A program made the position numbers and the translations under genes. Under the pieces are notes generated by a model, which worked only from the letters and a program-made list of their open reading frames with translations, did no database searches and was not told the DNA's origin. A stretch of 64,000 bases of DNA from Lama guanicoe (Eukaryota): positions 62,001 to 126,000 of the forward strand of contig MU053556.1 of assembly GCA_013239625.1 (NCBI GenBank), written 5' to 3'. Positions 5,428-58,958 of the stretch are shown one piece after another (position 1 is the first letter of the stretch; every line of letters starts with the position of its first letter).

Positions 5428-6279
5428 GGTATATACATAACATATGGTATAAAATAAAATCCTTTTATTTAATGTGTGGGACTTTGCTGCTGTCGGGAAC
5501 AGCTATGTTGGCCTGGTCTCAGTGGAGGACAGTAGGGGTCAGCAGAGCGTGCGGGAGGGCAGGCTGACTACCTTGCTTCTGCAGGGGGTTCTCCACAGCA
5601 AGGCACTCTGTTGAGTTTACTCTTCTCTAAGTTTGGTCTGAGAAGACAGCAAAGTAATGAGTTCTGGTGGGATTGTATAATGACGGGAAGAAAGAGGAAC
5701 CCGTAGTTTTCGGGACTAGAACACGCTTTTGGTTCCTGATCCAGTGTGTTCCATTACAGAATTGATGAGTTGTGTCTATTCTGGGACTTGATTGAAATAA
5801 ACGTTCAGCTTAAAAGTTAAGAGTTATGTTTTATTTGGCGGGAGGACTCGAGACTGGATGAAAGCCTCTCAGATCGCTCTGAGGGACTGCTACAAAGAGG
5901 TAGGGAAGGAGCTGGGATATATAGGAGCTTTACAACAAAGACCAGGTAGTTGGAACAATAAAACTTTGCTTGTTATCTAAAGAAATCCAGGTATCTCAAG
6001 TTCAAGAATTTAGTGCTTTTCTATGTATGGGAGGAAGCAAACATTTGGACTCAATGAATTCATTCTTTAGACAAGCACTTAGCTATCTAGGGCCAGTTTC
6101 CTGTCCTTTTTTATTCTGAGTCTGCTCAGAGGGCACCATGGTGAGTGGCTGCAGAGGCTGGGTTGCAGGCCTGTCCTTGCTGGGGTGTGTTGGCAGCCGC
6201 TGATGACTTGGTTTCAGCATTCTTTGTTTACTGACATGTTTGCAGTATTTTCATTCACGTTGTAGTATTTTCGTTCACA
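5428..6279 (+). repeat. Segmental duplication copy A (paralog of 58104-58958)
   Basis: Colinear with 58104-58958 over ~360 bp of non-LTR flank plus the whole LTR; roughly 85-92% identity judged by eye. Confidence 0.95.
5789..6279 (-). mobile_element. Solo LTR, ERV1-type, same family and site as the LTR at 58470-58958
   Basis: TG...CA ends; perfect 4-bp TSD GACT (5785-5788 and 6280-6283); minus-strand TATA-like element near 5918-5923 and AATAAA at 5830-5835. Confidence 0.92.
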
Positions 6280-7609
6280 GACTGATTATGGATAATCTGC
6301 AAACTTGGAAAGCAACCGAGATCGAATTACTGCAGGTACCTTCTACTTTAATAAGCCATGTGCAAACATAAACATGGAGGAAGCATACAAAAGGATTTGG
6401 TGATGTAGGGAAGGGTTTCTGCACATTACAGGAAAAGGCAAGGCAGAATTCCTCTCCTTTGTAGGCAGGGTCGTGAGTCCACCTTTCGTTTCTCTAGTGG
6501 TTTCTGAGAACAATTTAGGGTAATTAACCAACATTGACAAACGGTGGAACACAATGCATTTAAGAGCTGGCCGGCTGAAAATTGTGTATTGGACAGGTGG
6601 ATTTCATACGCAAGTGGTCAGGTGGATGGGAGAGAGATGGAGCCCAGACCTGGGCCCACATTCAGGTTTAAACCGCCATTTTCTCACCATTGGGCCTTGG
6701 ACTAGAATGTAACCTCTTTTAACCTGTTGGTGAATCTGTGAAATGGGCATGATAATATTCGTTTCTTCCTGGGATTGTTGTAAGTTGTAAAGAGTATTAT
6801 AGCACACATGAAGCACTTAACACACTGGCACTTAGCAGTGTTCACTGTGTGCGGCCGCCCCGCTTGGCGTGTGTCAGAGCCGCAAAGGCAGCATTTGTCT
6901 GTTGAGGGCGCACTGGTAGCCCCTTGAATTAGTTGTGAATTTGGTGATTTCCTTTAATCCTTGTAACTCTGTGTGCCATGGGCAGTTCTTTTCATGGACA
7001 GATGAGGAATCTCAGGGTAAAGAAGACTGTGTAACTTGCCCAAACTCAGACCATAATTTTGGGTACAGGGGCCTCGATTTAGCATGGGCCCTTGGGCCTT
7101 CTACCCTCTTCGTTCAGCACTAGAGCCAGATGTGGGGTCGGCTGTCACCCAGCACAGAATATCCAGCAGGCAGCAAGACACATCTGGCCCTGTGCTGCTT
7201 GAGCAAAAGCCCCGGAGGGGAGGCAGGTTCTAAAGGGATAAACATAAAAACAGACGACTGCAAACTGTGATCAGCTCTGAGAAGGAAAGGAACACGCCTC
7301 GCCGTGCAGAGCTGGGAGATTTCCCGTCGGGGCTGCTCTGGGGGCGTTCATCTCAGCTAAACAAGCTCTGCTGCTGCACCAAGGCAGGAAGGAAGGGCAC
7401 GTGTGACCAGCTAGACTGGGCCTCGTTGATCATAATCATTCCCCATTAAGCGGCAGCTCTCACGGGCACTTACCTAGTAAACAGATGTCGGCCATAATCA
7501 TCACGCATTTTGCTTGGTAGTTTTATTGGCCCCACCTTTGAGATTAGGTAATTGAAGCTGGGGAGTTTGCTGCATGCCCGTGATCACCTTGGAAATACCC
7601 CCACTGCTC

Positions 7610-8938
7610 TTTCATTTTCATATTCTTTTTAAACATAAGTTACTATAAGATATTAAATACGTTTTCCTGTGCTATACAGTATAAATTTGCTGTTTATTCT
7701 ATACATAGTCGATATCTGCAAGTCTTGAACTCCCAATTTATTCCTTCCCATACCCTCTCCCCTCTGGTAACAATAGTTTGGTTTCTATGTCTCTGTGTCT
7801 GTTTCTGTTCTGTAGATAAATTTATCGTTTTATTTGTTGGTTGTTTTTTTTTTAGATTCCACATGTGAGCGATCTCATATGGTATTTTTCTTTCTCTTTC
7901 TGGCTTACTTCACTTAGAATGTCATTCTCCAGGTCCATTCATGTTGCTGCAAATGGCATTAATTTATTATTTTTTATGGATGAATAGTAGTCTAATGTAC
8001 AAATATACTACAATTCCAGTTATAGTGGACATTTAGGTTATTTCCATGTCTTGCTATTGTAAATAGTGCTGCTCTGAAAATTGGGTTGTAGGTGTCTTTT
8101 TGAATTAGGGTTCCTTCTGGATATATGCCCAGGAGTGGGATTGCTGTGTCATATGGGAGGTCAATGTTTTGTCTTTTGAGGAACCTCTATACTGTTTTCC
8201 ACAAGGGCTTCACCAAACTGCATTCTCACCACCCTGTAGGAGCGTTCCCTTTTTCCACAGCCTCTGCAGCATTTATTGTTTGTGAACTTCTGCATGCTGG
8301 CTATTCTGACTGGTGAGAGGTGATATTTGATTGCAGTTTTGATTTACATTTCTCTGATAATGATATTGAACATTTTTTCATGTGCCTATTGGCCATTTGT
8401 ATGTTTTCATTGGAGAAATGTTTGTTTAAGTCTTCTGCCCATTTTTGGATTGAATCGTTTGTTTTTCCTTCTAATCAAGTGTAAAAGCTGTTTACATATT
8501 CTGGGAATTAAGCCCTTGTCAGTTTCATTCATTGCAAATATTTTCTTCCATTCCATAGGCTGTCTTTTTGTTTTGCTTACTGTTTCCTTTGCTGTTCAAA
8601 AGCTTGTAAGTTTAATTAGATCCCACTTATATATATTTGCTTGTATTTCTATTGCTTGAGTAGACTGCTCTAGGAGAACATTGCTGAGATGTATGTCAGA
8701 TGAATTGCCTATGTTTTCTTCTAAGAGGTTTATAGCATCTTATCTACATGTTAAAGTCTTTAAGCCATTTTGAATTTATTTTTGTGTATGCTGTGAGGGA
8801 GTTGTCTAACTTCATTGATTTACATGCAGCTGTCCAGTTTTCCCTACACCATTTGCTGAAAAGTCTATCTTTACTCTATTGTATGTTCTCACCTCCTATG
8901 TCAAAGATTCAAAGACCAAAAGTTTATGGGACTATTCT
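7610..8938 (-). mobile_element. 5'-truncated LINE-1 (ORF2 C-terminus plus 3' UTR)
   Basis: Clearly similar to, but more decayed than, the L1 at 20905-22139. Confidence 0.9.
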
Positions 8939-9067
8939 TGGTAATTTTGTTTATCCATTCATTGATGGATGGATATTTTTAGTGACTTTTAGCTACTCTG
9001 AATGATACTGCTATGAATATTGATGTGCAAGTTTTTGTGAGAATACATTTCCATTCTGTTGGCTGTA

Positions 9068-9207
9068 CAGTTGGCCCACCATATCTGTAGTTTCCACTTC
9101 ATGGATCTAGATGGCTGATTGTAAAGAGACTCGAGCATCCTTGGATTATGGTATCCAGGGTGGGGGGTTCCTGAATCCAACCCCCCGAGGATACTGAAGG
9201 ATGACTC
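9068..9207 (-). mobile_element. MER2/Tigger-like non-autonomous DNA transposon, internally deleted
   Basis: Imperfect terminal inverted repeats (cagttggcccaccatatc ... gatactgaaggatgactc), TA at 9066-9067; both ends resemble the recalled MER2 termini. Confidence 0.65.
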
Positions 9208-9629
9208 AATATGTAGGAGTGGAATTGCTGAGCCATATAACTCTAACCTTTTGAGGAAACACCAGACTTCTGCAAAGAAGCTGCACCATTGTCCCTTTCC
9301 AATGGCCACATATAAGGTATCTCTTCCTCCTGAACGACAATTGTTATTGTCCATGTTTGATTATAACCATCCTATTGGGTGTAAAATGAGGTTGCATTTT
9401 GATATTGATTTGGCTAGTGATGCTGAGCATCTTTTCATATGCTTATTGGTCATTTGTGTATCTATTTAAATCCTTGGCAAATTTAAAAATTGGGTCGATT
9501 TTCTTTGTATTGTTCAGTTGTAAGCATTTGCTATGTATCCTGGATACTAGTCTCTTATTAGATATATGCTTTGCAAAATTTTTCTCCTATTCTGCAGATT
9601 GTCCTTTCACTTTAGTTTTCTTAAATATT

Positions 9630-9722
9630 AAAACAATTTCTTTATAGGGGAGGTAATTAGATGTATTGATTTATTTTATTTTTCTTGCTAAGCACGCACT
9701 CTATCACTTGAGATAATCCCTT
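9630..9722 (-). mobile_element. Degenerate tRNA-derived SINE fragment
   Basis: Shares gaggtaattag and tgctaagcacgcactct with the SINE at 22205-22349. Confidence 0.6.
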
Positions 9723-12700
9723 CCTCTGAAATTTCACTTTCTTGTTGATGTCCTTTGTAAGAAAAAGGTTTTAATTTTGATGAAGTGCAGTTCATCTGCC
9801 TTTATCTTCTATCACTTCTGCTCATGGTATTGTATCTAGGAAACCAAAACCTATCCTAGGACCACAAAGATTTATACTGTGTCTTCTTTTAGAAAGTTTA
9901 TCGGTTTAGTTTTTATATTTCTGTCTGTGATCCATTTTGAATTAATTTTTATTTGTTATATACAATTTGGGGGTCCAGATTCCAGATTCATTCTTTTGCC
10001 TGCAGATACCCAGCTGTCCCTGCACCATTTGTTGAATAGACTATTCTTTCAATGGAGTGTTTTTGGCACTCTTGTGGAAAACTGACTGTAAATGTAAGTT
10101 TTTCCCCTCTGGGTTTTTATTGTGTCTCATTGATTTATTTATCCAAACTTATGCCAACTCTATACTGATTTGAGTACTATAGCGTTTTAGTAAACTTTAA
10201 AGTGAGTCCTCCAACTTTGCTCTACTTTTTAAGGATTCTTTTGGCTGACCTGGGTCCCTTGCACTTTCATATGAATTTTGGGATCAGTTTTTCAATTTTT
10301 GCAAAGAAGTCAGCTGGAATTTTGATAGGGATTCCACTGAATTTGTAGATCACTTTGGGGAGTCTTAGCATTTTTAACAATATTGTCTAACATTCCATGA
10401 ACATGGGATGTCTTCCATATATGTAAAGCTTTTAAATTTTTTTCGGTGATACTTAAAAATGTTCAATGTACAAATCTTGTAAATTTTTGTGAAAAGTATC
10501 TCTCATTTTATTTTTAATGCTGTTGTAAATGGAGAGGCTAAGCTTCTTAAGGGTGGGACTATATATAAATTTGTTTATTTCTAGGATTCCTACACAGCAA
10601 ATACCCTCGGTTTAAAATTGCTACATAAATCTATCCACATCTCTTCCCACCCCTGTGTTATAAGAAACCAAGACCCAAGTTAGGCTACCTGAACACCTAT
10701 GCGGAAGTGAGAAATGAGACCCTTGGGTGGGGCTTTGTGCAGATGATACTGAGAGCTTATTCAGGTTGGCTTTATCTTAATTTCTTTTAAACAACCCTTT
10801 TGGTGTATATAGTCAGATACATTAATAACATGCCCTTTTGATGTGCAGAGGAGCTAAGACCATCATTTTCAAATAATTACTAGTGACAGTGTTGTACTTG
10901 AAACCCAATTTGCATCAATCTTTGAAGATTTATGTTTCAGGAGCTTTGACTAAAGAACACATGTCTTTATTCAATGACAACTAAATGCTCAAGCAACATG
11001 TAAGAGTTTGAGCAAAATGCCCCCGCCCCGTAGTGCTGGTTGGCTGCAGCTGAAAATGGAGTCAGCGCTTACCTCTCCCAGTACGCTTCTGCTGATCTGC
11101 TCAAAGTGGTTCGTCCAACAGTTTGTCTGTAGTCTGTTGGAAAAAGCCATACAACATTGATTTAAGGTTGCTGGATTGCAATATATTCTTAGTAATATTA
11201 AGAAAGCACATATTGAGTGCTTACTGTATGATGGCATTGTCCCTCAGCCTCACATGAATATTATTTCTCTTAAAACCTCACATGTTTCCTTGTTATTCTC
11301 ACTTTACAGATAAGGAGACAGAGAATTAAGACTTCTCTCTTTTGGGGGGAGCTCATTATCAATGACTTGAAGTTGTAAGGAAAAAGATATTGATTCATCC
11401 TGAAAAAACAATTTTTGAGAGTCAGCAATGAAGAGGGTGACCACTGAAGAAGGTGATCATTGTTCTAGTGAGATGAGCCCCAGGTTGTACGGAGTCAGCA
11501 TCCTTGTCCTGGACACGGCCAGTGTAGAGCTGCGTGGTGGGTGAGGCGGAGCGGCCATGCAGGGAATGAGGATGCCTGGCCATTGGGCTGTGCTCAGGCG
11601 CGGTGGGGCTTTCCGTTAAGGGCAGTGGACCGTCATTGACAGATTTTAAGTAGGGGAGTGGGGTGCTCTCGTAGATCCCTTTTGTCTTGTAGAATGCTTG
11701 GAAACATTTAGAAGGCTCGGCAGGAGGTGATGTGATGAGTCAGAGTAGGGTGGCTGTGAGGTGTACCAGCGTTCAATTTTCAAGTGGTTTTCAGTCCCAG
11801 GTTTGTGGCTCAGTAGCCATGTCACTTTGGATGACGCACTCAAGGAAGTGAAACAATTTATCTAATCAATTGAAGCAGTGATGTACCCACTTCCCAAGAC
11901 TGCTGTGGAGATCCAGTGAGATAACGTTTTCACAGTGTGCAGCATGGACCCCAGCACAGAGTCAGTGCTGAGTGAGTGCCAATGAGTACCTGGTAGGATA
12001 GTTGTGGGTGGTGGGACTCGATGACTGAGGAAATTTGCGCCCTGAAGAATGGGTCCAGTCACATCTGTGAGTGATGGGCCCGAGCTGGGAGAGGCAGGGA
12101 GACCTTGCCCCTGACCAGTGGCCCTGAGCAGGACGGCTATGGGAGAAGGACCATGAAGTCAGCTCTTTGCAGGTGGAGTTGGACGTGCCCATGAGACATC
12201 TAAGTGCAATGTCACGAGCTCACAGAGGAGGTCTGGGCCCGGGCTGTGCATTTTCCTATAATCTCAATCCCTGAGGACGCCGAGGTATTGATCACGGAAT
12301 GTGAAGACATACTTTACAGGACAAGTGAATAGTAGTATCATCTCTGTCATCAAAGGTCACGTCTCTTTATTCATCACTCACTTTGCTAATTGGGTACTTA
12401 CAGGGCGGTTCTTCACCGCCCTCCCCTGGGCTCAGGCTCCACAGTAAAGAGCTGGTGAGCCTCCCTCTTTTCCAGAAGAAGACACATGTAGCTGGTAGCC
12501 TTCTATACCTCGCCAGACTTAGAATTTTAATTTGTTGTTTTAATTCAACTTTCTGTTGGCCATCTCCTGACAGGAGAGAAGTTTTACCTCATGGTCATGT
12601 TTCAATTAGCTGTTACTAAGAATTGCTGATCTGATCCATAGTGTATGTATTCTATTAACTTTGTAGAGTCCTATCATTTTTCTATCTTTTCCCTTTAATT

Positions 12701-14581
12701 TTATATGCCACTTCAAGCCTCTATCCTATTTGGGGACTTATTTTTTTTAATTAAATAATGTCTGTTAGCAGTTAAGAAAACAAAAGCAAAGAAAAAATGC
12801 ACATGATACCTAAATTTAGAAAATATCTAGTGTGTTTCCTGTCTCGGCAATGGAGGGATATAGAAACTCATTAAAACCTTCATTACACAAGTTCCTTAAA
12901 ATGCTGATTAAGAAATAAAACCTTCCTTCCTCATCTTTCAAGCTGCACAGCTAATTGTCAAGAAAGTGAGGGGAAATACTCAGAAGCCAAGACAAACCAG
13001 AAAGGGGTTCTGGGAAGTAAGCGAGCCTTAGAATCACTGGGGGGCCGTTTGACTCCTGACCTGGGTTTCAGTTGCCCTGACAGGAGGGCAGGAGGTGAAC
13101 CCCAGGCCTCTCACAATGGGAGTTGAATGGCTGATCTTATGTAAGGCCAAGCAGATCCTGAGAAGCCTGGTTTTCTAAAGGGTGAACTAGGAAAAAGAAA
13201 TTCTCAAGGCAGGAAAGTAAGGAAAGTCAATTTTGTTTGAAGTGGGGAAAAATAACAAATCCAAAGCAAGGATGTAATTTAAAGCTGTTCTGGCATGAGG
13301 GTGACCACAAACTCCTGGCAGAAAAGCACAGCTCCTCCTGGAATGAGAAGTTGTGTTTTGAATGGATCAGTGAACAGCCATTCCGAGAAAGGCCTCCAGA
13401 GTCTTCTGGATCAAGATACTGGACCCAAACACCTCTCTTATCTCATTCAACAGAAAGGTTTTAAAGGAAAGAAGCCATAATCATAGTTCTATTTATTGAC
13501 ATTACTATATGCTAGGAATTCAGAGGTGACTATGGAGTTGTCTCCTCTTTGATGGACCTTACTTTCTCTTTGGGGAGACAAACTGACATAGTTGGGGAGC
13601 TTGGTGGAGGGAGGTGTTAGTCTTTTGCAATTAGCTAGGAAAGGAGATTAAGAAATCAGTGAAGAGTGGGTGAACTTTTTAGCTGAGGACAGTCTTGTTC
13701 AGTTGGCTTTTAATTGCAGGCTTGATGAGTTTTCACTGGAGGGAATAGATCTTATGGAGGATGGACTTAGCTCAGGCCTCTTTAGAATGTACAAGTGAAC
13801 CTGGACAAAGACAAGTCAAATCTGTGCAGACATTGAAGTTCACTTGAACGTGCTCCATCCCTGAGCCAAAGATAGGACAAATATGCAGCACTCCTTGAGG
13901 ACAGAGGAGTGGTTTTTAAGGTTCCTCAAGAATGAATCCCAGGGAACCGAGATGGCCAGTTGTCAAACTGTGACTTTGCTCTTTGGACAGTGTACCCACC
14001 AAGGGTATTGGGCTTTTATAGGTTTCCATTTCTCTTTAATACATGTCAGGTTATGACATCGTGGGCACAAGCATTTGACACCTTGTCGAGGTGACGTTGG
14101 GTACCTGCCAAGAAGCGCGGGCACAGCTGCGGATGCATCATACATCTTGCCGCCCTTCCCGTTCCCTGGCTCCGTGATCACAGCAGAGTGGTTCCTTGTT
14201 GACCTGTCCGTCTCCTCTGTGACATCATAATCCATGAAAAGACCGGAGCGTATTAACTTGGCTTTGTTAAAGTCAAAGGAACAGATCTAATATGGAGTCA
14301 GATTTGTTCATTCCTATTTCAGTAGTGCCATGGAGAAGGCACTTTGGGCAGCTTTTTATAGGGTCCTGGAGGCTTTCTCTCTCAGCCTCTGGGCGCCTCT
14401 ATTGCAAACCTTTCATAGCTGTCTGGCCTGCTGGAAAACCATTCCGACTGTTTTGCCCGGAAGATGTGTTGTGTTTATAACTCATCCCTACACCTTGGGA
14501 AACAACTCAATAAGAACTCAGTGGGTTTTCCACCAACCATGGGCAGGGGTGAGGGATAGCATGTTATAATTTTATAAAGTA

Positions 14582-14582
<1 letters not shown>

Positions 14583-14621
<39 letters not shown>

Positions 14622-14626
14622 TAATA
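14583..14626. repeat. (TAA)n microsatellite
   Basis: About 14 TAA units with one CAA interruption. Confidence 0.9.
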
Positions 14627-14770
14627 AAAAGAATACTTAAATCAGCACTGGGCACATAGGAGAGAGTCAATAAAAGCTTCCTGGCTTAAATCAAAAGTGA
14701 TGGCTCAGCGATTCCATGGCTGCTGTAATTGCTGTGCTAGTTACTCCTTTGCTCCATTACACTTTTTTTT

Positions 14771-15149
14771 AACATTTTTTATTGATTCATAATCATTTTA
14801 CAGTGTTGTGTCAAATTCCAGTGTTCAGCACAATTTTTCAGTCATTCATGGACATATACACACTCATTGTCACATTTTTTTCTCTGTGATTTATCATAAC
14901 ATTTTGTGTATATTTCCCTGTGCTATACAGTGTAATCTTGTTTATCTATTCTACAATTTTGAAACCCCAGTCTATCCCTTCCCACCCTCTACCCCGCCCC
15001 CCACCCCGGTAACCACAAGTCTGTATTCTCTGTCCATGAGTCTATTTCTGTCCTGTATTTATGCTTTGTTTTTGTTTGTTTTTGTTTTTTAGATTCCACA
15101 TATGAGCGATCTCATATGGTATTTTTTTTTCTCTTTCTGGCTTACTTCA
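14771..15149 (-). mobile_element. Young L1 3'-end insertion
   Basis: Nearly identical to 20905-21257. TSD CATTACACTTTTTTTT at 14755-14770 and 15150-15165, followed by AA (L1 endonuclease TTTT/AA site). Carries its own AATAAA. Confidence 0.92.
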
Positions 15150-15408
15150 CATTACACTTTTTTTTAACTGAAAAAGTAATACATACATATGGTTGAAAAA
15201 TTCAAACAGAGCACAAATTTACACAAGTGAAAGAAGTTTTCCCTCACCGTCTGTTCTTTCAGGCCTCCCTGGAGGTGCCACAGTTTACTATCCTTTGTGT
15301 GATTTTCCACATATGCTATGCACATTCCCACCTATGTATGTAAATTCCTTTAAAGTTTTAGTTATATTTAACTTAAAGTGATTTAAATCCTGAAGTGGCT
15401 TCTTCCCC

Positions 15409-15892
15409 GGTAATAGAAAAGAACAAATCTGTCTCCATATTAGATCTGTTCCTTTGAATTGAACCCTGTGCTCTGCCTCCTAGGCTTCATCTTGCTTGTA
15501 TAAAAATGTTGCCTAGAGCCTGAAATGTACAGGAGAGCCTATTCTAAAGGCTCTGCCCTTTAAGGATATTTAACACTGTTTCACTCATAAAAAGATTACA
15601 AGTTGCAGAATAGAAAATAACGTTTGTTTTGTTGGAGGTTTACAGAGATTTGACCCAGGCAGATAGCTGCAAGAACAAAGGATTCTAGCAACAAAGAATT
15701 CCTACACCAAGAAGTTTGCAACAACCAAGCACGTAGGAAAGGAGCCTGAATTCTGACTTGGGGAGATGGTTTTCCAGGACATTAGTTTGCCATCAAGGTC
15801 TACAGAAACTTGCTATTCCGTGCCCCAACACCTGGTCTCCGAACTTATTGGCCTGTCCTGCAATGAGGAGAATGAATTTGGACTCGGTAACA
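15409..15892 (+). mobile_element. Solo LTR (ERV1-like), same family as 53407-53946 in the opposite orientation
   Basis: (g)GTAATAGAAAAGAA...GGACTCGGTAACA aligns with the reverse complement of 53407-53946; near-TSD CCCC/CTCC. Confidence 0.8.
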
Positions 15893-16549
15893 CTCCTATC
15901 TACCTAGCAACCTGGGCACCAGAACTGAGGACAGCTCTCCCACACCCAGGGACCTACTGTGAGCCCTTGATGGTTCCCCTAGGGTGGGGTGTGGTTTACT
16001 CAGGAGGGATGGGGACTATGTACCAACACTCAGGCAGTCTGCTCTGTCTGGGGCTCTGATCTTTTACCTGCTGCCCCTGCCAGCCCAACACCTGGGACAT
16101 TGGAGCTAAGGCAGAGATCCTGCCCGCCTGTTTCCCAGAGTGTAAAAGGGGAATATGTACTCTTCCCAAGGTAGTTCTGAGCGACAACACATGCGGGTGC
16201 TTGGTTCCCAGAGCAACAGGAAACCCAGCTCTGCATGGGGGCAACGGGTGAGATCCCCATAGAGGTTCTGCACAGGCCTTGGCTGGAGGGCTGGACCAGG
16301 GAGGTAAAACTTGAGCTGCGGGCCTTAAAGGGTTAGAGAAGGGTACAGAGGCAGGACTGCCTCCTCCTGTGGGGTGCCCCCAGAGGTAAAGCTTTTCCTC
16401 TCCATCTCAGCTACTCCCCTCTCCAGATCCCTCCCTTCTCTCTGCACCTCCTGTCCATCTGTCTCCCTCCACTTTTCCCCTCCTCCCCTCCTTCTCCCAT
16501 CTTCTCCCTCCCTCGCTGCCCCAGCTTTTCTAGCAGAACCAAGAGGGTC

Positions 16550-17308
16550 GCTGGCCCTCCTGCACATGCGCAGTCGGTGCCAGCTGGACCGCGGGTTGGA
16601 AGCCCCAGCTCCAAGCCAGGGATTGGCCCCAAATGCTCCTCAGCCCTGACGCCCTGTAGGCCTTTGGCTCCTTCCTGTGGCCGGAGCCTCTGGCTGTGGA
16701 CGTGCAAGGTGGGGTCCCCCGGGAAAGGGGTCAGGCGGCTGCGGGAGGGCGTCCGCGTGTCACAGCCCGCGAGGGCGCGAGTCACCGTGTGTTCAGCTGA
16801 ATTCCTCGGGCCAGGCCCCTCTGCCCGCGCCACCGGCCACGGCGCCCCGGCCACAGCTGCCCAGGGCCAGGTGTGCACCTGCCGCCTCTAGCCCCAGCCG
16901 CGCTCCCCTCAGTCCGCGGCTGGCGTCCCCTTCCCCTCTCCCGCCCGCGAGTCCTCTCCTCCCTGGCTTCCTCTCCTTGGCCGCCTACCCGTCCCCGCCC
17001 CTGGGCGGGCTGTGTCCGGGGCGGGCTGTTTCTGCGGACCCGGATGGGGGCGGGCGGCTGAGGCTGGGGCTGGCCTCCGAGCGGGACTGCAGCCCGCGTC
17101 CCCAGCCCCCTGCTTTCCCTGCCCCGCGACCCCGGGGCTGCCCTCCTCTCCCTTTCCCGCTCCCTGAGGACAAGCTCAGCGGCGTGGGCGCTGCTCCCCG
17201 GGCTGAGAGTCTCCAGCTGTAAAGCCCAGCTTCTCCTGGTGGAGTCGGGAAAAGGGATCGCCAGTGCTGAGCGAGCTTCCGTCTCCTCCCTCAGTGTTTC
17301 TGCCCCAG
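16550..17308 (+). promoter_or_regulatory. CpG island, putative promoter and non-coding first exon
   Basis: Dense CpG in an otherwise CpG-poor window; NRF1-like GCACATGCGCA (~16562); GC boxes (~16993, ~17018, ~17047); ends at consensus donor CAG|GTAAGT (GT at 17309). Confidence 0.75.
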
Positions 17309-18334
17309 GTAAGTACCTTGAACACTTTCAGGTGGTATGATGGCGGTGCTTGTTGATGTCACGTGTTTTTATAGTGAGGAGGATTACAGTGTTGAAAGTA
17401 ATGCTTTGTTCAGTTAAAAATGAACTGAAGGCATGAGGCTGCGCCATCCTCCTTCCTTCCCTCTCCTAGGGTGAAACGTGTGACCCACGATTTTAGGAAT
17501 ACAGTTACAGTCCCTAACTAGTCCAGCCCAGCTAGTGTGTGTTAACAGGAACAGCACCACCAGAGGCGTTGGAGACCCAGGGACATTGCAGTCCTAAAGA
17601 GCTCCTGGCACAGTTTGGTTAGTTTTGGTTTTTTGTTTTTCTTAAGCTGTGGGGCAGACTAGTTGTATACAGGAGAAAATAATTGTCAAGAAATTTTTTT
17701 TCATATAACAGCTTTATTGTGATATTGTTCACACACCATGAAGTCCATCCATTTAAATGGTACAATTCAGCAGCTTTTAGCATATTCACAGTGCTGCAAC
17801 CTTTATTATTCCAGAATTTTTCATCACTTCAGAAAGAACAAGAAAGAACAGTGGAAATCAATGACCTATCCACCCTTCCCTAGTGGTGGTTCTAAAGAAG
17901 TTTCTTGGCTGTTCCTGATCATAAATTAACTTGTTACATTCCATGAAAAATCTGGTAGGTATTCTAATCAGAATTGCATTGAATCTGTCTATCAAAACAG
18001 GAAAAAATATTGTCTTTATGGCTTAAACTTCTTCTACCCATGAATTAATCTGGGACCCTATCTTTTCATCTGTCCAGAGCCTGGCCCATGGGAAGTCATC
18101 ACTAATTTTTGGGCTTGTGAATGATGAGATTCTATACATCGTTAGTTGCAACTGTTGCCTTTCCCAGGGGAGAAAAGTAACCTCTGTGAAGCCAAGTAAC
18201 TCTGATGGTGAAAAAGAGTTCAGTCATTGCTGGAGTGATCCAGTGGACTTGGTACTTGCAACCAGAATTCTCCACCACCTACAGCTAAGGGGATTACAGT
18301 TTTCTTTTATTTTTTCTTAATGGCGTTGCTTTTA

Positions 18335-18610
18335 TTTTTACTTTTTTTTAAATTATTTTTTGTTGAAGTGTAGTCAATTTACAATGTTAGTTTCAGGTGT
18401 ACAACAGAGATTCAGTTATAAACATATTCATATGTATATACATACGTTTTAGATTGTTTTTAGTACAACTCATTACAAGAAATTGAATACAGTTCCCTGT
18501 GCTATATAGTAGGTCTTTGCCATTTATTTTATATTTATTAATGTGTATCTGTTAATCCCCCCTTTCCTGCCTGCTAAACACAGTTTGCTTTCTATGTCTA
18601 TGAGTCCATT
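18335..18610 (-). mobile_element. L1 3'-end fragment
   Basis: T-rich tail followed by tgaagtgtagtcaatttacaatgttag and gttccctgtgctatatagtaggtc, typical antisense L1 3' UTR. Confidence 0.75.
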
Positions 18611-22153: not shown

Positions 22154-22204
22154 AATTGAAGTGTAGGCAAGTTTACAGTGTTGTGTCAATTGCAAGGTGT
22201 TTTT

Positions 22205-22783: not shown

Positions 22784-23355
22784 GGCCTGCAACATGAGCA
22801 TCCCTGACTACGTGCAGTGTGCTGAGGAATACAAGACTCTCCCCGTTGTGGTCCAACCCGTTGGGATCACCTCAGAGGAGAATTTCTTTTGCATCTATAA
22901 GCGAATCTCCTTGGTGAGCCAGATCAGCCAGTGCGGCTCCCAGTTGGCACTCTGTATCCACTACAGGCACCACTATGTGCCCGAGAATGGGTGGAGATAC
23001 TTCCAGACGAACCGCAAGGTCGTGGGCCTTGTCACCATTACCGATTGCCTCTTGGCCACGGCCTTCAGTAAGCTCCACGTGCAGAGAGGAGCTGTATGGC
23101 ACCACACTTATTGTCTCTCAGCTGTTTGTCTTTGTGCTGCATGGGGAGGCAGCCGAGCAGACACGCACCGACGTGGCCTTCAATCTACGAGGACTGCAGG
23201 GTGGTGAAGAGGATTGAAGACTTCACTGAGTCACTCTTCATCTTGCTCAAGTCTAAGTGGCTGGATGGGGCCCCCGAAAATTCTGGGGACAAGATCCCCT
23301 TCCTCTGCATCCTGTTTGAGAAGGAGGACTTCATGGGACTGGACACAGACTGAAG
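22784..23355 (+). pseudogene. TRAPPC9: TRAPPC9-like first coding exon (exon 2)
   Basis: ATG at 22794 reads [32 protein letters not shown]...[16 protein letters not shown]. Frameshifts near 23088 and 23183, then ...[22 protein letters not shown] (TGA 23351-23353); donor GTAAG at 23356. No AG after the upstream pyrimidine tract, so the exon start is approximate. Confidence 0.93.
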
Positions 23356-40252: not shown

Positions 40253-40279
40253 TGGTACATGAAGTGCTCATTGATCCAG
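40253..40279 (+). pseudogene. TRAPPC9: TRAPPC9-like 27-nt microexon (exon 5)
   Basis: ttctttcttccAG|tggtacatgaagtgctcattgatccag|GTacat encodes VHEVLIDP versus recalled AQEVLIDP; both splice sites intact. Confidence 0.85.
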
Positions 40280-48293: not shown

Positions 48294-48414
48294 GTGCCCC
48301 TACCTCCAGTGGCATCCATCCAGACACCAGCAGTGACACTGGCCGTGCTCAGAACTGCCTCAGCCCTGAAGGCACAACTGACAAATAGAAGGGGACCGCG
48401 TCCTGTTACAGCAG
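48294..48414 (+). pseudogene. TRAPPC9: TRAPPC9-like exon 6
   Basis: cttgcAG|GAPTSSGIHPDTSSDTGRAQNCLSPEGTTDK*KGTASCYS|GT versus recalled [41 protein letters not shown]; in-frame TAG at 48386-48388. Confidence 0.9.
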
Positions 48415-51400
48415 GTGCTCTCCCTTTGTGGGTCCTTACGTAACTGCGTGGTGTTATTCAGGATCGCCCGTTCCACATTGTGCGACGCTACTGCGGTGTC
48501 TCCTAGTTACTTGTTTCTGTAAGTACTCGTGTATTTTCTCCAATGTGTGGTACTAGACATCTAAAAATGCTTTTTTTCAGATGAAAAACAATGTGTTTTT
48601 AATATAATAAGTCTGAAAAAAGGGGTAAGAGAGGCTATCCTGGTCCCACTACTCAGAGATAATAATTAACACTTTAACGTCTATTTTTGTCCTTTTCGTC
48701 AGTGTGTATCACCTCTGTCATAAAAACCAGCGAGCACTCTGTGCCTGTTTACTGTGTGGAGAACTCCATTTTCCATTCGGCTTTTGATATTTTTTCTGCA
48801 ATATTCTATCTCCCCTGGCATGATTTTTAATGACCAGTATAGAATTCTGTCTTGTGGAGGCATCGTCCATTTTACTTCAGACTAAAACTTTTAAATTCCA
48901 AGTATACTTTACTGAAATACTGAAAAGAGAACCGTGGTGGTACCGAAAGTCCCCTACCTCCCTTCCCCTTATTTCCTGAAGGTAAAAGCTGTTGACAATG
49001 TGTATATATTTCATGACCTTTATGCCTAGGACATATATATATATACACATACATACATATGTACATACATACACGTATATGAGAAATCTATATATATATG
49101 TGTGTATTTATATGCTTTATTGAAAATTAAGGCCATACTATATGTTTTCTACAGCTCACTTTATTCACTCAGGGGTATATCATAGACGTCCTCCCACTCC
49201 AGATTCACCCGGTCCTTTCAGATACAGTGGAAGGGGTCTCCTGATGTGCAGGTGTGGTCTCTTTTGGAAGGACAACTTTGGTGGGAGAGTGCTGTGGACA
49301 AGGCCCTGGACCATGCCGAAACACCGGCCCCCTCAGAGCCCACAGCTCGCCGTGATTTACTGCATAATTTTCTTGATGGTGGACGCTTAAGTTTTCTCCA
49401 TTTTCCACTGTCAGTAATGATGTTTGACTGGCATCCTTCTTGTACAAACATTCCTGTAATCTTGTATGAGTATTCCTTTAGTTAAGGCTTCCTGAAATTT
49501 AGTCCCTGGATGTGACATTTACATTCATCACAGGCTCCTTTCAAGAGACTCTAGAAATTCCTTCTCCAGTGGGGAATGAATAGATGTAGAATAACTTCTG
49601 TAACCAGTTCTATATCGCTGGATATGATTTCACTTCAGCTTTTCTTCCCAGCATTGTAAAAAGTGCTGTGTAAATGCCCTGATGAATACATCTTTTTGAA
49701 CTGATTTTTTTTCTAAACGAAACGATTCCTTGAAGCTGAGTTGAGTCTGTGTGTACACACGTTTTTCCAGTGTTTATATATCCATTGACATGTCGTCCTC
49801 CAAAATGTCGCTCAAAATTTGTTCTCTCACAGATGGATACTAGCTAGAATATCTTTTATAAATATTTGCCAATATGATGAGCAAAAGTGCTTTTTCATTG
49901 TTTTAACTTGCATTTGTTGACCAGTGAGGTATTCAGTATTTTTCACTCATTAGCCATCTGACTTTTTAAAAGTGAATGATCCCTTATGTCCGTTTCACAC
50001 AGTTAAGTGAGGGAGCTTCTTGTTGCTTTGTGACAGCTCTTTGTATGTCATGAACATTAACCCCTTGTCTTCATCAACATGTACCACTCAGCTTTTTCTT
50101 GTCATTTCTTGCCTTTCATTTTGTTCAGTAGGTTTATTTTTGTTGTGGCCCAACATATTCTTAAGATACTAAATGTCTTCCTTTTGGGTTTTAACTTTGG
50201 TATTATTCTTAGAAATACTTTCTTATAATGGTATCAATCTCTTCTGTAGGTTTTTTAATCTCTAAGATGGAGATGATAATGGTAATTGTTCCAGTGAGGA
50301 GAAGTTGAAGTAATATGAGCAAAGGGTTGTATTTGCTCTTATTAGTACTTTTTAATATTTACATCACTATCTGTAAGTTTTCTTGTGGTCATTATGACAG
50401 GAATAGAGTTTGTTCTTTGCAGGGGATTCTCTGATTGTCCCAGAACAATTATTGAATTCATACTTTGCTCTTTGATTTGAAATCCCCCTTGTACAAAATA
50501 CTTATGAACACTAGAGTCTCTTTTTGAGCTCATGGTATATTTCTGTAAATCTTTCTTTCTTATTCCAGCTCTATATCTTACATATTGTAAAAATTTATTT
50601 AATATCCAACAGTGCAATGTTTTTTCATTCTTTTCTTCCATCCCAAATTTTCTTGGCTAGTATTATGACTTTATTATTCCTGAAGAATTCTAAAATAATT
50701 TGCTCAAGTTAAAAAAAAACAAGTAAGAGTTTTCATGGGATTTTTTAGTAAGTTTTGAATTATCTTTAGGGGAACTTACATCTTTACAAAACTGCTTTCC
50801 TCCATGCAATATGTTGATGTCCATACATTCACCCCTGTTAATTTACCCCTCAGTACAGTCCTGTAGTTTTCTCCATGTAGAACATGGGCATTAATTTTGA
50901 GTTTATTCCAGATTATTGTTGAGGATTTTGTTAATTTTTTAAGTGAGAATTTTTTGGTATTACATTTTTTGACTGTTTAAACTGACACCTAGGAGGGGAG
51001 ATTCGGTTTGTAAATACTCACTTTGTAACTTGTCATTTAAAATTGTAATTATTAAGTACTTGTTCCAGAATGCTTTCTTTTCTGTTTTTAAAAGTTTGTT
51101 TCCAAGATTATCAAAATGGTCATAGCTAAGTAGTACACGTGGGGAGACAGATGGAGAGAGGTAGTGTGGTTCATGTACAAACTGTGAGCAGTTTCATGGC
51201 TGCCTTTAGGCTGGAGAAGCCACAGAAGAGTCCAGGAAAGACCAGGGATAGCTTTGTATGCACTTGAAAGCCAGCTTTCCTGCCTTTATGGAGAAGCCTG
51301 GTGCGCGTGGCAGGTAGATGATCAAGGTCCGTTGGAGGTCATTGGCTGGACACAGCACTGTGTCTGTGAGAAGTGGAGACCAGTGCCATGGGAAATGCTT

Positions 51401-53406: not shown

Positions 53407-53946
53407 TGTTATCAAGTCCAATCTCGTTCTGCTTACTGCATGACAGGCCAATAAATCGGGAGATGAGCTGTTGGAGCAAGGAATAGTGACTTTATTTGAA
53501 AAGTTGGCAGACCCAGAAGATGGCATACTGTTATCCTGGGGAACCCTCTTCCCCAAGTCAGAATTCCGTCTCCTTTTATACTAAAAAGAGGTGGCGGTGT
53601 GGTTGGTTGTTGCAAACTTCTTGCTGTACGAATTGTTTGTCCTTGGAATCCTTTGTTCTTGCAGCTGTCCATGTGGATCAAATCATGGTGCCCCTGAAAA
53701 ACCTCCAAAAAAAACCCAAAGTTTATTCTCTGTTTTACAACTTGTCATCCCTATATAAGTGAAGAAGAGTTAACAGTCTTAAAGATCAGAGCCCGGAGAA
53801 TAGGCTCTCCTGGATATTTCAGGCTAAAGGCAACTTTCTTTTACAAAAGGTGCAGAGCTAGCAAGTCTGAGCCTAGAAACAGGGCACACGGTTAAAGCCC
53901 AAGGAACACTTCTAACATGGAGTCAAATTTTTTCTTTTCTATTACA
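53407..53946 (-). mobile_element. Solo LTR (ERV1-like)
   Basis: Minus strand TGTAATAGAAAAG...GATAACA; perfect TSD ATTT (53403-53406 and 53947-53950); homologous to 15409-15892. Confidence 0.88.
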
Positions 53947-55101: not shown

Positions 55102-55225
55102 CGTAAGAATGCTGGTGACTCAGTTAGAAGCATGCTTCGAAGCTGTCCGTGTCCTTGCCATCCAGAAGCAGAGCCTGGAAGCTTCCAAATTTCTCCAGAA
55201 TGCGGTTTACTTTCACCTTCGACAG
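55102..55225 (+). pseudogene. TRAPPC9: TRAPPC9-like exon 7
   Basis: ctcctgcAG|RKNAG, frameshift, then [41 protein letters not shown] versus recalled [42 protein letters not shown]. Confidence 0.92.
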
Positions 55226-58103
55226 GTGAGTGTATGTCCACTTACAAGTGGAGGAATTACTGCAGTTTTTCTGAAACTTACTCACCACTAGTCCATCTGA
55301 TTTTCCTGTGCTAGGATTCAGTATGACATGCTAAAAATTCTGGAGTCAGATCTTGAATCCCTGATGAAGAGGATTATTTATTTTATTTCTTTATATGATA
55401 GTATTTTACTTTCAAAATTCAGAGTTTTCTGTTCTTTGAGGAATTTTTTCGGGGGTTGGAGAAACAACTTTGCTCTTACCATCTTTGGGACCTGTTTCTA
55501 TATGCCTCTCACATGTCTTGTCACTTGTGAGGCAGTTCCATTTGTGACCCTGTGCGGGTTGTTCATGTTATAAAATATAAAGCCTGTAAAAGTACAGTCC
55601 CTCTTACTTCGAAGATATTCCACAAATACTACTTAAATCTGGGTATGGTTTTAAGCATACAGAATCATTAGAACATGTACTTGCAGGTTGCTAGTGCAAA
55701 ATCCCCAAATCAATAGTCTAGCTCAACATCTAAAATCTTTCTAATCTTCCTTGGATTTGTGTACATAAGTGAAGCAGTTTGCCAAGAACTCAAGACCAGG
55801 TTTAGAAAACAGGCTGGTGTAGCTCAGCAGGTCCTCAGAAGCTGATGCTCTGCCAGAGGGCGGGGCCGAGGGGAGAGGGCGTGTCCTGCCCTCCCTGAGC
55901 TGACAGTTTCATGGTAAAGACCTTCACCAGGTGAAGAACTGGGAGTTTCTTCTAAGAAGAGTGGGTTTGAAAAGAGTCCTAAGAGCACGGGAGTGACACA
56001 ATCCCATTTGTCTCAAGTAGGGGAGAGCGGCTGTGGGGCCACTTGGGAGACTCGTGAGCCCAGGTGGGCAGTGTTGGTGGCTTCCCCTTGAGCTGTGGGA
56101 CGGTCAGTGGGTAAAAGTGAACAGAATGAAGGCATGTTTAGATGGTTAAAAGGAAAGGATGAATGCTGTCTGTGAAGGTAGGATGGAGTAAGGCCCAGGT
56201 TTCTGTGTGGATTAATGAGGTAAATGATTGTCATGCTGTGCTCTGAGGAGAGAAACTGCAGAGGGAGTTCTGGGGGGGAACTAAAGAGTTCAGCTCTGGG
56301 TAAAGTGAAAGGCTGTTCGATGTGTGATCTGGGAGCTCTGGTGAGAGCCAGTAGTGTGTAGGGGGAGAGGAGAGAGACTTTCAAATCATTTTGTCTTGTG
56401 AACATACAAATAAGTATGAGTAATGACAGACTTAACACCTCTATATTCTGGATTTAAAGCCCTGTAAACTTTTGCTATATTGACTGCAGAGGTTCTTAAT
56501 TTTTTTTTAATAGAAATAAAATAAATGGAAACTAAATAGTGTATTTAATGAACATCTAAGAGTTGATGTTTGTCCTTGTATGTATTTTGATACCTCATCT
56601 GTTTATAAACATAATCTACAAAAAGTTAGCTTGCTTAGCATAAGAGTTAAAAAGAGGGACGGGGCACACAATGTTGGGGGTTGAGGCTGATCTTCTTGGG
56701 CAAATTTTGTAGGCTTTCTGTGCCTTAGTTGCATCTTCTGTGACTGCCCCCGGCCCCCTCATCACAGCTGATTTCCTAGACTAGATGTTGGGAGGGAGGC
56801 TGCTGAAAGGAGTAAGAAGTGGCAACTGTTAGGGATACTGAAGAGAGAGACAAAAACAGATTAAGCCGATAAACTGAGTACAAATACCCTCAAAAGAGAA
56901 AGAATCCTGCAGTGTTTTGAGCCCCTTAGCATAAGGGAAACAAGATCAAGTGGACCCAAACTGTTAGAATGTGAGTATTGTGGGTGGGAGGGTGTCAGAA
57001 AATGGTTGAGAAAAGGCCTTTTGGTTTCCCTTGACGTTTCCAGTAAGGATGGGACGCAGAAGCGAAAGCCCCCCTGCTTCACAGCGGAAGCTGCTGTTTT
57101 GTGCGAAACTGACCAAAGTTTGGAAACCAGTCATCAGTGGTGCTGGCAAATGAAGAGACTTCTGGATTGGGTGGGGCACTTGCTGTGACTTCCAGGTGAC
57201 CTGCTGGCTGGGGGCTGTGAGGCGGACAGTAGGTTTGCAGGGTGGCCCGGGCATGATCCCTGGCTCTAAGGCTGCTGTTCTGATTAGCAGACCTTGGCAC
57301 CCACAGTCCTAATGGGGCAGCTCGTGATGTGGCCTGGGACACCTGCCATGCTGAGGGGGAGAAGAGGGCTCCCCTGAGTTGGTGTCCCTGCGGAGAGTGG
57401 AAACGTCCTCCTGCAGGGGAGGAAGATCCTCTGTACAGGTGGCCGAATGCATAGGCAAGACCAGCCTGAGCACGGAGGGTTTGGGGAGCTGGAAGTCATA
57501 CAGTGGCCCGAACAGCCTTGTTCCTGAGAGACTGGAGGGAAAAGATGCTGAAAAAGGCAGGCTAGTGTCTGACCCTGTGGTGGGTTATGAGTGACAGGAA
57601 AGGACTGGCCAGGCAGGCACAAGAGAACCCTGTGAGCGTCCCAACTGGGGCGTCTCGCTGGAGGGAGTAGCAGAGTTATAGACTTTTCAACTTATTAGCT
57701 GTGTGACTTTGAGCAATATCACCCCACTTCTCTCTCTATATATCTTGATGTGTAAAGTGACAGAGTGACCAGCTCGTGTCATCAGAAGGCTTAGTTTAGC
57801 TCTGATCCTCTGTGTCCAGTCCTGTCAGTGCTGCCCTGCAAGGTTCTGCAGCGGCTGCACTTACCCTGAGATGGGAGGGTGTAGAGGGACATTGTAGCAC
57901 ACGAGGACAGGAAGGGACTGCTTTAGAAGCAGACATGTAGCCTGCTGAAGCTGCAGACCTGCAGGCAGTTTGGTTGATGGTCGTGGAGAGGACTTTGGAG
58001 GCCTTAGCGTCGTCTTAAGACTTGTTTTCCCTTGGGGACCGGATTTGCCTTTGCAGAATAATATTGAAGATTTGGGCTTCTGGCAAAGCTGTTTTCAGAG
58101 ATG

Positions 58104-58958
58104 GGTATATACGTAACATATCGTATAAAACAAAATGATTTATTTAACTTGTGGGACTTTGCAGCTGTTGGGAACAGCTCTGTTGGCCTGGTCTCCACGG
58201 AGGACACTAGGGGTCAGCAGAGCGTGCGTTAGGGCAGGCAGCCCGCAGTGCTGCTGCGGGGGGTTCTCCCCAGTAGGGCGCTCTGCTGAGTTGACTCTTC
58301 TCTGAGTTTGGATGCCAGATGAGCAGACAGCAAAGTAATGAGTTCTGGTGGGATTGTATAATGACAGGTAGAAAGAGGAACCCGTAGTTTTTGGGACTAG
58401 AACAGGCTTCTGGTTCCTGAACCCGTGTGTTCCATGACAGAATTGATGAGTTTTGTCTATTCTGGGATTTGATTGAAATAAACGTTCAGCCTAAAAGTTA
58501 AGAGTTATGTTTTATTTGGCGGGAAGACTCGAGCCGGGATGACAGCCTCTCAGATCACTCTGAGGGACTACTCCCAAGGTGTATGGGAGGATCTAGGATA
58601 TATAGGAGCTTTACAACAAAGACCAGGTAGTTGGAACAATAAAACATTGCTTGTTATCTAAAGAAAGCCAGGTGTCTCAGGTTCAAGAATTTAGTGCTTT
58701 TCTATGTATGGGAGGAAGCAAACATTTTGGTCATTGAATTCCTTCCTTCGACAAGCACCTAGCTATCTAGGGCCAGTGTCCTGTCGTTTCTTATTCTGAG
58801 TCCGCTCAGAGGGCACCACTGTGAGTGGCTAAGAGGTTGGGCTGCAGGCATGTCCTCGCTGGAGGGTGGCAGCAGCCGCTGATGACTTGGTTTCAGCATT
58901 CTTTGTTTACTGACATGGTTGCAGTATTTTCATTCACATTGTAGTACTTTCATTCACA
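58104..58958 (+). repeat. Segmental duplication copy B (paralog of 5428-6279)
   Basis: ggtatatacgtaacatatcgtataaaac... is colinear with 5428 onward through the LTR end. Confidence 0.95.

What the first reader, a model, noticed from the sequence alone, without database searches (positions are those of the whole stretch)
5428..58958. Probable ~52.7-kb head-to-tail duplication unit carrying a truncated TRAPPC9 cassette
Seen: 5428-6279 and 58104-58958 are direct paralogs (offset 52,676 bp), including non-LTR flank, and the second copy lies downstream of TRAPPC9-like exon 7. Inference: the window holds one whole unit (CpG promoter plus exons 2-7) and the tail of a preceding unit, i.e. a tandem array of partial TRAPPC9 copies. 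TRAPPC9 is normally a single-copy trafficking/NF-kB gene, so a lineage-specific amplified cassette would be unusual.
Basis: partly seen in the sequence, partly recalled or inferred. Interest (0 to 1): 0.75.

Follow-up and report, generated by a model that had tools for sequence, protein, structure and literature searches.

The report
Tandem camelid TRAPPC9 pseudogene repeat unit
This stretch holds one broken copy of the front end of the TRAPPC9 gene plus the tail of the copy before it, part of an old family of such copies repeated head-to-tail and scattered over many chromosomes of camels and alpacas; it is most likely genomic debris that can mislead gene annotation and trait mapping, not a new working gene.

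Summary
Observation confirmed: 5428-6280 and 58104-58959 are same-strand paralogs, 88.5% identical, made of a 361-bp host flank plus a 491-bp ERV1 LTR that sits at the same site (solo LTR in copy A, provirus in copy B). Between them lie a CpG island and TRAPPC9 exons 2, 3 (part), 5, 6 and 7, all but exon 5 visibly broken; exons 4 and 8+ were not found. The tandem reading is supported indirectly. Bactrian gene models splice exon 7 to sequence matching 9071 and 11310, and exon 6 to 10008. In all, 30 of 122 camelid models run from a later part of the unit back to its tail, promoter or exon 2. Copies occur in four camelid species, on 24 alpaca and 8 Bactrian sequences, share the same lesions and diverge about neutrally. 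The outer flanks and copy number could not be read, and the left junction is a break inside a betaretroviral env. Verdict: an old (about 23-38 My, rate recalled) pan-camelid pseudogene duplication family, tandem and dispersed. The scan noted it before on other DNA; I found no paper on it. Side finding: a marked excess of C>A changes.

The parts
1..5427 (-). Betaretrovirus-like (ERV-K) provirus, decayed and cut by the window start: integrase, RT thumb, protease/dUTPase, gag pieces in separate frames, primer-binding site 5245-5262, a short U5-like remnant and an env SU fragment ending at 5427
   Evidence: Pfam rve, RVT_thumb, RVP, dUTPase, Gag_p24, Gag_p10. Frame 5254-5427 matches P0275 (an env-like protein with a HERV-K Rec domain) at 44%, pairwise E=2e-12. 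The lysine-tRNA identity of the primer site is recalled.
5428..5788 (+). Copy A host flank; by position in copy B it is intron-7 sequence of the preceding unit (inferred)
   Evidence: 44 of 360 sites differ from 58104-58469; no other match in the window
5789..6279 (-). Copy A ERV1-type solo LTR with 4-bp target-site duplication
   Evidence: Same 4 bases at 5785-5788 and 6280-6283; 90.2% identical to 58470-58958
6280..16000 (+). Tail of the preceding unit (region downstream of exon 7 in paralogs); includes cryptic terminal exons 9071-9118, 10008-10082 and 11310-11378. Its exact end is not located.
   Evidence: C-termini of Bactrian models P0003, P0106 and P0115 match at 88%, 92% and 82% (E=2.5e-7, 8.9e-13, 7.1e-8), with AG acceptors; for P0003 and P0115 the window frame ends in a stop where the model ends
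16500..17500 (+). CpG island / promoter region with exon-1-like segments (16537-16708 and about 17190-17308)
   Evidence: GC 0.71 and 0.61, CpG o/e 0.64 and 0.61; used as 5' exons by camel and alpaca models
22785..23355 (+). TRAPPC9 exon 2, decayed: acceptor AG lost, two frame shifts, one stop, small deletions; first 98 codons open
   Evidence: tblastn with pig TRAPPC9 in three frames, 55-67% identity; splice sites against model P0001
31663..31771 (+). 3' part of TRAPPC9 exon 3; 5' part not found
   Evidence: 68% to pig aa 208-244, E=3.9e-10; 5' peptide has no match at this place
40253..40279 (+). 27-nt TRAPPC9 mini-exon (exon 5; numbering recalled), AG and GT intact
   Evidence: 73% over 11 aa, E=3.2e-4
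48294..48414 (+). TRAPPC9 exon 6, 121 nt, with an in-frame stop
   Evidence: 54% to pig aa 296-336; AG/GT present
55102..55225 (+). TRAPPC9 exon 7, 124 nt, out of frame at its start; last exon found
   Evidence: 74% to pig aa 342-380; no later exon at E<2 with three full-length proteins
58104..58469 (+). Copy B host flank
58470..58958 (-). Copy B ERV1-type 3' LTR at the same insertion site as in copy A
   Evidence: Left junction matches copy A at 7 of 8 flanking bases
58959..64000 (-). Decayed ERV1 internal region, running off the window
   Evidence: No frame above 108 aa; weak MLVIN_C hit at 59820-59993

Best explanation
Before camels and South American camelids split, the 5' end of TRAPPC9 (promoter to at least exon 7 or 8) was duplicated, acquired an ERV1 in intron 7 and lost coding function. 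A roughly 50-kb version of it was then multiplied head-to-tail, most likely by unequal crossing-over, and blocks of it were copied to many chromosomes. The window shows one whole unit and about 10 kb of the tail of the unit before it. In that earlier unit the ERV1 collapsed to a solo LTR, and its upstream part was cut off or separated by a rearrangement inside an ERV-K. The units are no longer homogenised and decay about neutrally. The retained CpG promoter probably still drives non-productive transcripts that splice from one unit into the next. Shown: the paralogy, the anatomy, the lesions and the family. Inferred: adjacency of a full unit on the left, the recombination mechanism, the age and transcription.
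For: (1) Same LTR at the same site in both copies, solo in A and proviral in B, 10.6% different (90 of 849 sites): insertion preceded duplication, and the pair is not a false assembly overlap. (2) Exon 7 or exon 6 joined to the window's left tail in 3 Bactrian isoforms of one locus. (3) 30 of 122 camelid models jump backwards on window coordinates: 3 to the tail, 22 from beyond 40 kb to the promoter or exon 2, 15 from exon 2 to exon 2 (overlapping sets). Six carry an exon-7 peptide directly before the exon-2 start, from alpaca, Bactrian and dromedary. (4) Two different exon-2 copies in one model on a 69,361-bp dromedary contig (P0141), two models on an 81,758-bp contig and five on a 1.47-Mb scaffold, which fits a period near 50 kb. 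(5) 44 of 44 short hits and the 11 best long hits are camelid. Models lie on 24 alpaca sequences (17 above 20 Mb) and 8 Bactrian sequences. (6) All 57 distinct copies share a 1-aa gap, 56 of 56 share a 4-aa gap, and 0 of 46 continue in the parent frame after codon 98. They form one side of a 100/100 branch against 9 canonical proteins, with camel and alpaca copies intermixed. (7) Mean identity among copies is 79%, against 96% among 8 canonical mammalian proteins. About 78% is the neutral expectation from 10.6% DNA difference (my arithmetic).
Against: The DNA left of position 1 and right of 64000 was not seen, and no read depth was obtained. The left junction lies inside env, so the left tail could be a transposed fragment and not a full neighbour. 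Gene models are predictions whose RNA support I did not see. Multi-mapping or back-spliced reads can create cross-unit models, and their introns may span more than one unit. The 122 models include isoforms and are not 122 loci. Contigs were told apart by length only, and 7 of the 24 alpaca lengths come from rows with no accession shown. One alpaca model (P0276) carries exon 8, so not all units end in intron 7. Four N gaps inside the unit could hide exon 4 or join different copies. The camelid canonical TRAPPC9 was not retrieved, so the shared gaps were judged against non-camelid genes.
Confidence: 0.72

Rival explanations
1. Mosaic, not tandem, at this locus: the left 10 kb is a separately transposed fragment of the family (a duplicon patch), joined by a rearrangement inside an ERV-K. 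The 52.7-kb figure is then the length of one unit but not the period of an array here.
For: The left junction is inside env and fused to a U5 remnant, which needs at least two breaks. Neighbouring copies differ by 10.6%. The family is dispersed. An earlier unchecked note describes TRAPPC9-POFUT2 mosaics in this genome.
Against: The order exon 7, tail, promoter, exon 2 recurs in models of three species, so the tail-to-head join is a family trait. Internal deletions of tandem proviruses need not remove the left host flank.
Confidence: 0.15
2. The unit is a functional lineage-specific gene family, like primate core duplicons. The kept promoter and the open first 98-118 codons make a short TRAPPC9 N-terminal peptide or a regulatory RNA, and this favoured the spread.
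For: CpG island retained. Many RefSeq models start at the TRAPPC9 ATG and share a new C-terminal tail after the common frame shift (40 of 46). Persistence in four species. Recent alpaca sub-expansions with near-identical copies.
Against: Identity among copies is at the neutral expectation. Models are chosen for open frames. This copy has lost its exon-2 acceptor. No Pfam match for the 98-aa frame. Models use many different frames and intronic pieces.
Confidence: 0.1
3. Assembly artefact: a collapsed or mis-joined scaffold places two alleles or unrelated copies side by side.
For: Four N gaps within the unit; no public run holds more than 0.43 of the sampled words of 10500-20400.
Against: 88.5% identity and different LTR states rule out an allelic overlap. 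The exon order across the gaps is that of the parent gene. Independent assemblies of four species hold the family.
Confidence: 0.03

Closest known systems
Canonical TRAPPC9 (NIBP; TRAPPII subunit; Pfam PF08626 and others, about 1,138-1,147 aa)
   Same: Exons 2, 3, 5, 6 and 7 in order, with introns and a CpG island upstream; 54-74% protein identity to pig per exon.
   Different: Ends after codon ~378; exon 4 not found; frame shifts, stops and a lost acceptor; multi-copy.
RefSeq/GenBank 'trafficking protein particle complex subunit 9-like' models of Camelus and Vicugna (e.g. LOC141577670, XP_074219372)
   Same: Same family: shared gaps and frame shift, 72-85% identity, intronic pieces also match the window.
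   Different: These are automatic annotations of single loci. They do not describe the repeat unit. None is identical to this copy (best 84-85%).
Pseudogene-rich repetitive blocks of alpaca chromosomes 11, 17 and 36 (NEK10-like x18, FMN2-like, ATF5, ABHD17A-like), PMC13751797 (abstract, passages, Discussion part 1 and one supplement read)
   Same: Multi-copy fragmented gene pieces in repeat-rich camelid regions, read by the authors as segmental duplication followed by decay.
   Different: Those blocks are local and reported absent or reduced in camel assemblies. This family is in camels and alpaca and on many chromosomes. TRAPPC9 is not mentioned in that text or in the supplement held.
Primate core duplicons (NPIP, GOLGA8, TBC1D3, LRRC37) and unprocessed pseudogenes in segmental duplications; recalled, not tested
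   Same: Gene-derived, intron-bearing unit with its promoter, spread in tandem and dispersed copies in one lineage, with transcripts crossing unit borders.
   Different: No sign of an intact, selected reading frame; adjacent units are about 11% apart, older than typical primate duplications.
Gene-bearing macrosatellites (D4Z4/DUX4, RS447/USP17, TSPY array); recalled, not tested
   Same: Long head-to-tail unit holding a promoter and gene sequence.
   Different: Unit about 53 kb, neighbours not homogenised (88.5%), no intact ORF.

Membership tests
Unprocessed (duplicated) pseudogene of TRAPPC9 | Homology to the parent gene with introns kept | tested here: met
   Five exon pieces in order over 32 kb, GT donors present
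Unprocessed (duplicated) pseudogene of TRAPPC9 | Disabling lesions or truncation | tested here: met
   Two frame shifts and a stop in exon 2, stop in exon 6, lost acceptor, nothing after exon 7
Unprocessed (duplicated) pseudogene of TRAPPC9 | An intact parent gene elsewhere in the same genome | not testable with these tools
   No genome held for the window; no camelid full-length TRAPPC9 among the 60 listed members of four canonical clusters (at most 15 listed per cluster)
Unprocessed (duplicated) pseudogene of TRAPPC9 | Neutral divergence | tested here: inconclusive
   Protein identity 79% vs about 78% expected (and my arithmetic); no DNA-level dN/dS possible
Tandem array (head-to-tail) | Terminal direct repeat including unique flank, same orientation | tested here: met
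Tandem array (head-to-tail) | Neighbouring units continue on both sides at this locus | not testable with these tools
   Both ends run into proviruses that leave the window; paralog models support the order elsewhere
Segmental duplication, strict sense (>1 kb, >=90% identity; definition recalled) | At least 90% identity over at least 1 kb | tested here: not met
   The in-window pair is 852 bp at 88.5%. It is an older duplication; younger copies elsewhere were not measured on DNA.
Primate-type core duplicon | Lineage-specific spread to many loci | tested here: met
   24 alpaca and 8 Bactrian sequences; 44 of 44 short hits camelid
Primate-type core duplicon | Transcribed core | tested here: inconclusive
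   Many spliced RefSeq models; no reads examined
Primate-type core duplicon | Intact protein-coding frame under selection | tested here: not met
   This copy is broken; all copies examined share the lesions
Macrosatellite | Homogenised neighbouring units (high identity) | tested here: not met
   10.6% of sites differ between adjacent copies

The most novel reading that the evidence does not exclude
The unit is a camelid counterpart of the primate core duplicons: a promoter-bearing TRAPPC9 fragment that seeded tandem and dispersed duplication blocks on about half of the chromosomes for over 20 million years. It is transcribed through unit borders and yields a short N-terminal TRAPPC9 peptide or regulatory RNA. 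It also sits in a compartment with a distinct C>A-rich, oxidative-type mutation spectrum.
Probability: 0.12. Interest if true: 0.75.

Novelty: new member of a known kind. Interest (0 to 1): 0.4.

Why it matters
It names a large, old, pan-camelid duplication family that I could not find described in print, though annotation pipelines label its pieces one by one. In practice it can mislead mapping. A dromedary GWAS lists 'TRAPPC9, POFUT2' together as candidates at Chr14:31.08 Mb and feeds TRAPPC9 into GO enrichment (PMC10357240, passages read). These genes are unlinked in human (recalled), so the hit is probably a pseudogene block; this is my inference and was not tested. The family is also a natural test set for how gene-derived repeats spread in a karyotypically stable lineage, and for whether such blocks mutate with a different spectrum. 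If a selected peptide or RNA were shown, it would be a non-primate core duplicon.

Tried and rejected
No whole genome is held for this window, so flanks and copy number could not be read from it. No read-depth or loose-end data were obtained; both remain open. One search listed 24 runs: 14 DNA-type rows of 6 organism codes held 0.29-0.43 of the sampled words, 6 RNA rows held 0.08-0.17, and 4 raw-read rows were unindexed. None was laid, so they are no evidence of expression or species. A 23-base flank motif found 0 matches in metagenome contigs. The exon-2 peptide gave 193 pattern hits and 0 confirmed relatives there. Rfam found one tRNA-like hit only. Pfam did not recognise the env fragment or the 98-aa frame; of 6 phmmer hits for the env fragment, 3 were repeat proteins and were discarded. 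Rejected: LTR-LTR pair of one giant element (the flank outside the LTR is shared, and copy A has its own target-site duplication); allelic overlap (10.6% difference); processed pseudogene (introns kept); 5428 as a retroviral integration site (it lies in env). Literature: 'TRAPPC9-like' 0 papers; TRAPPC9+camel+segmental duplication 0; TRAPPC9+alpaca 0; TRAPPC9+Camelus 4 (passages of one read, listings of three); spelled-out name+camel+copy number 5 (listings, none on topic); POFUT2+TRAPPC9 3; one search gave 18 off-topic listings. PMC12994199 passages give no camelid spectrum in the main text; its supplements were not seen and may bear on the C>A point. The tree used 79 of the 122 models; 7 were dropped for short coverage and identical rows were merged, leaving 56 plus the window. 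No clade test was run. Structure prediction was not run, as it would not decide anything here.
Full report
Observation. A self-comparison of the window finds the stated pair: 5428-6280 against 58104-58959, same strand, 88.5% identity over 859 columns, offset 52,676. The alignment has sharp ends. A more sensitive search between the left 16.5 kb and the right 24 kb adds only short matches between interspersed repeats. The block has two parts: a flank of 361/366 bp (44 of 360 sites differ, K2P 0.134) and an LTR of 491/489 bp (46 of 489, K2P 0.101). In copy A the same four bases flank the LTR on both sides, so it is a solo LTR. In copy B the LTR is followed by decayed internal sequence to the window end, with a weak gammaretroviral integrase hit below the Pfam cut-off. 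One insertion at one site in two states means that the ERV1 inserted first, the region was then duplicated, and one copy later lost the internal part.

Gene content. Full-length TRAPPC9 proteins match at 22794-23356 (three frames, a stop near the end), 31663-31773, 48293-48415 (stop) and 55115-55231. A 27-nt mini-exon lies at 40253-40279. Exon numbers are recalled from the human gene. Exon 4 and the 5' part of exon 3 were not found in the window, nor in any of 122 camelid models; they could lie in the four N gaps. Nothing beyond codon ~380 is found. The exon-2 acceptor, present in paralog models, reads AT here. A CpG island lies at 16.5-17.5 kb. The cassette is therefore a truncated, intron-bearing pseudogene with its promoter region.

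The family. With the exon-2 frame as query, 44 of 44 hits of 75-240 aa (97 candidates) are camelid. Among 103 longer hits, 13 are camelid partial copies, including the 11 best, and the rest are TRAPPC9 of other vertebrates or unnamed. Cluster look-ups bring the set to 122 distinct camelid models, isoforms included. Of 79 models given to the tree, 7 were too short and identical rows were merged. The 56 left plus the window fall on one side of a 100/100 branch against 9 canonical proteins, and camel and alpaca copies are intermixed (at least 3 label changes forced for each). All 57 share a 1-aa gap, 56 of 56 a 4-aa gap, and none of 46 continues in the parent frame after codon 98. So one already damaged duplicate was amplified, and several sublineages predate the camel-alpaca split, put at 11-25 My in PMC13751797 (passage). 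The A/B distance of 0.114 gives 23-38 My at 1.5-2.5e-9 per site per year (rate recalled). The camelid canonical gene was not retrieved, which limits the rooting.

Is it tandem? The window's own flanks are out of reach, but colinear gene models from other assemblies act as probes. Isoforms of Bactrian LOC141577670 join exon 7 to sequence matching 9071-9118 (88%, E=2.5e-7) and 11310-11378 (82%, E=7.1e-8), and exon 6 to 10008-10082 (92%, E=8.9e-13). Alpaca models run exon 7, promoter exons, exon 2, exon 6, exon 2 again (P0119-P0121). In all, 30 of 122 models jump backwards on window coordinates, and six put an exon-7 peptide directly before the exon-2 start, in three species. One dromedary model has two different exon-2 copies on a 69,361-bp contig; two models share an 81,758-bp contig and five a 1.47-Mb scaffold. 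These fit a period near 50 kb. Caveats: the models are predictions, I saw none of their RNA support, and cross-unit introns can skip units.

Against a simple array. The minus-strand frame at 5254-5427 is a betaretroviral env SU fragment fused to a U5-like remnant and the primer site of a gag-pro-pol provirus. So 5427/5428 is a deletion or duplication breakpoint, not an integration site, and what lies to the left is open. One alpaca model carries a decayed exon 8 after exon 7 (P0276), so longer members exist and the 52.7-kb unit is one derived form. Neighbouring units differ at 10.6% of sites, so there is no ongoing homogenisation here.

Function. Copies are on average 79% identical over the first 90 residues, against 96% among eight canonical mammalian proteins. 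About 78% is expected without selection from the DNA difference of the A/B pair (my arithmetic), and the models are biased towards open frames. The likely state is neutral decay with residual, read-through transcription from the kept CpG promoter (inferred). A selected short peptide or RNA is not excluded.

Side finding. Of 90 differences between copies A and B, 36 are of the C:G/A:T transversion class, against 7 A/T, 6 C/G and 41 transitions (p=1e-5 against an assumed 20%). In the protein models, polarised from the majority residue, C>A fills 25 of 62 possible changes, C>T 31 of 63, T>C 18 of 79, C>G 14 of 66, T>A 10 of 71 and T>G 7 of 82; 20 ambiguous and 14 multi-step changes were set aside. 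An old L1 in the unit compared with a young L1 shows no such excess (13 of 140), though that comparison mixes in L1 lineage history. Whether this is a trait of the blocks or of camelids is untested.

Known versus new. The kind is known: lineage-specific duplicated pseudogenes, with camelid examples in PMC13751797 (abstract, passages, Discussion part 1, one supplement), which does not mention TRAPPC9 and describes blocks absent or reduced in camels. My searches found no paper on this family. Earlier unchecked notes of this scan describe the same family on other DNA, one with a ~54-kb head-to-tail unit; they are leads, not support. A dromedary GWAS naming 'TRAPPC9, POFUT2' at one locus (PMC10357240, passages) probably hit such a block.

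Verdict. Observation confirmed; tandem reading likely but not shown at this locus; an old pan-camelid TRAPPC9 pseudogene repeat, a new member of a known kind, interest 0.4.

Noticed in passing
window 5428-6279 vs 58104-58958, and camelid exon-2 models: Marked excess of C:G to A:T transversions: 36 of 90 differences in the DNA pair; C>A in 25 of 62 possible changes across the family; 5 of the window's 12 own exon-2 changes are certain C>A and 2 more possible. May be an oxidative-damage or late-replication signature, or a camelid-wide trait.
   Followed up: partly
window 5245-5427 (-): An ERV-K env SU fragment is fused directly to a short U5-like remnant and primer site, suggesting tandem proviruses with two deletions.
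   Followed up: partly
alpaca model P0276: A family member with the pseudogene form of exon 7 followed by a decayed exon 8, which the window lacks: a longer, possibly older form of the duplicate.
   Followed up: partly
PMC10357240 Table 2, dromedary Chr14:31.08 Mb: GWAS candidates 'TRAPPC9, POFUT2' at one locus, probably a pseudogene block and not the real genes.
   Followed up: partly
window 13950-14320, 15410-15900, 33630-34130, 41587-42140, 53407-53946: At least five more LTR-like elements inside the unit, read by eye except 15410-15892 and 53407-53945, which are 71% alike in opposite orientation; the one at 33.9 kb holds a 104-bp tandem repeat.
   Followed up: no
window 14792-15150 and 20905-22151: Two young L1 3' ends, 96% alike, on either side of the CpG island; the longer keeps a 318-codon open ORF2 end.
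   Followed up: no
window 22275-22345 (-): Rfam tRNA hit (41 bits), probably a tRNA-derived SINE; weaker look-alikes seen by eye near 9650-9720 and 39320-39390.
   Followed up: no
window 34248-38861: Four N runs (310, 78, 195, 423 bp) clustered where exon 4 would be expected.
   Followed up: no
window 10500-20400: No indexed public run holds more than 0.43 of the sampled words; this copy may be poorly represented, or multi-copy DNA is fragmented in those contigs.
   Followed up: no
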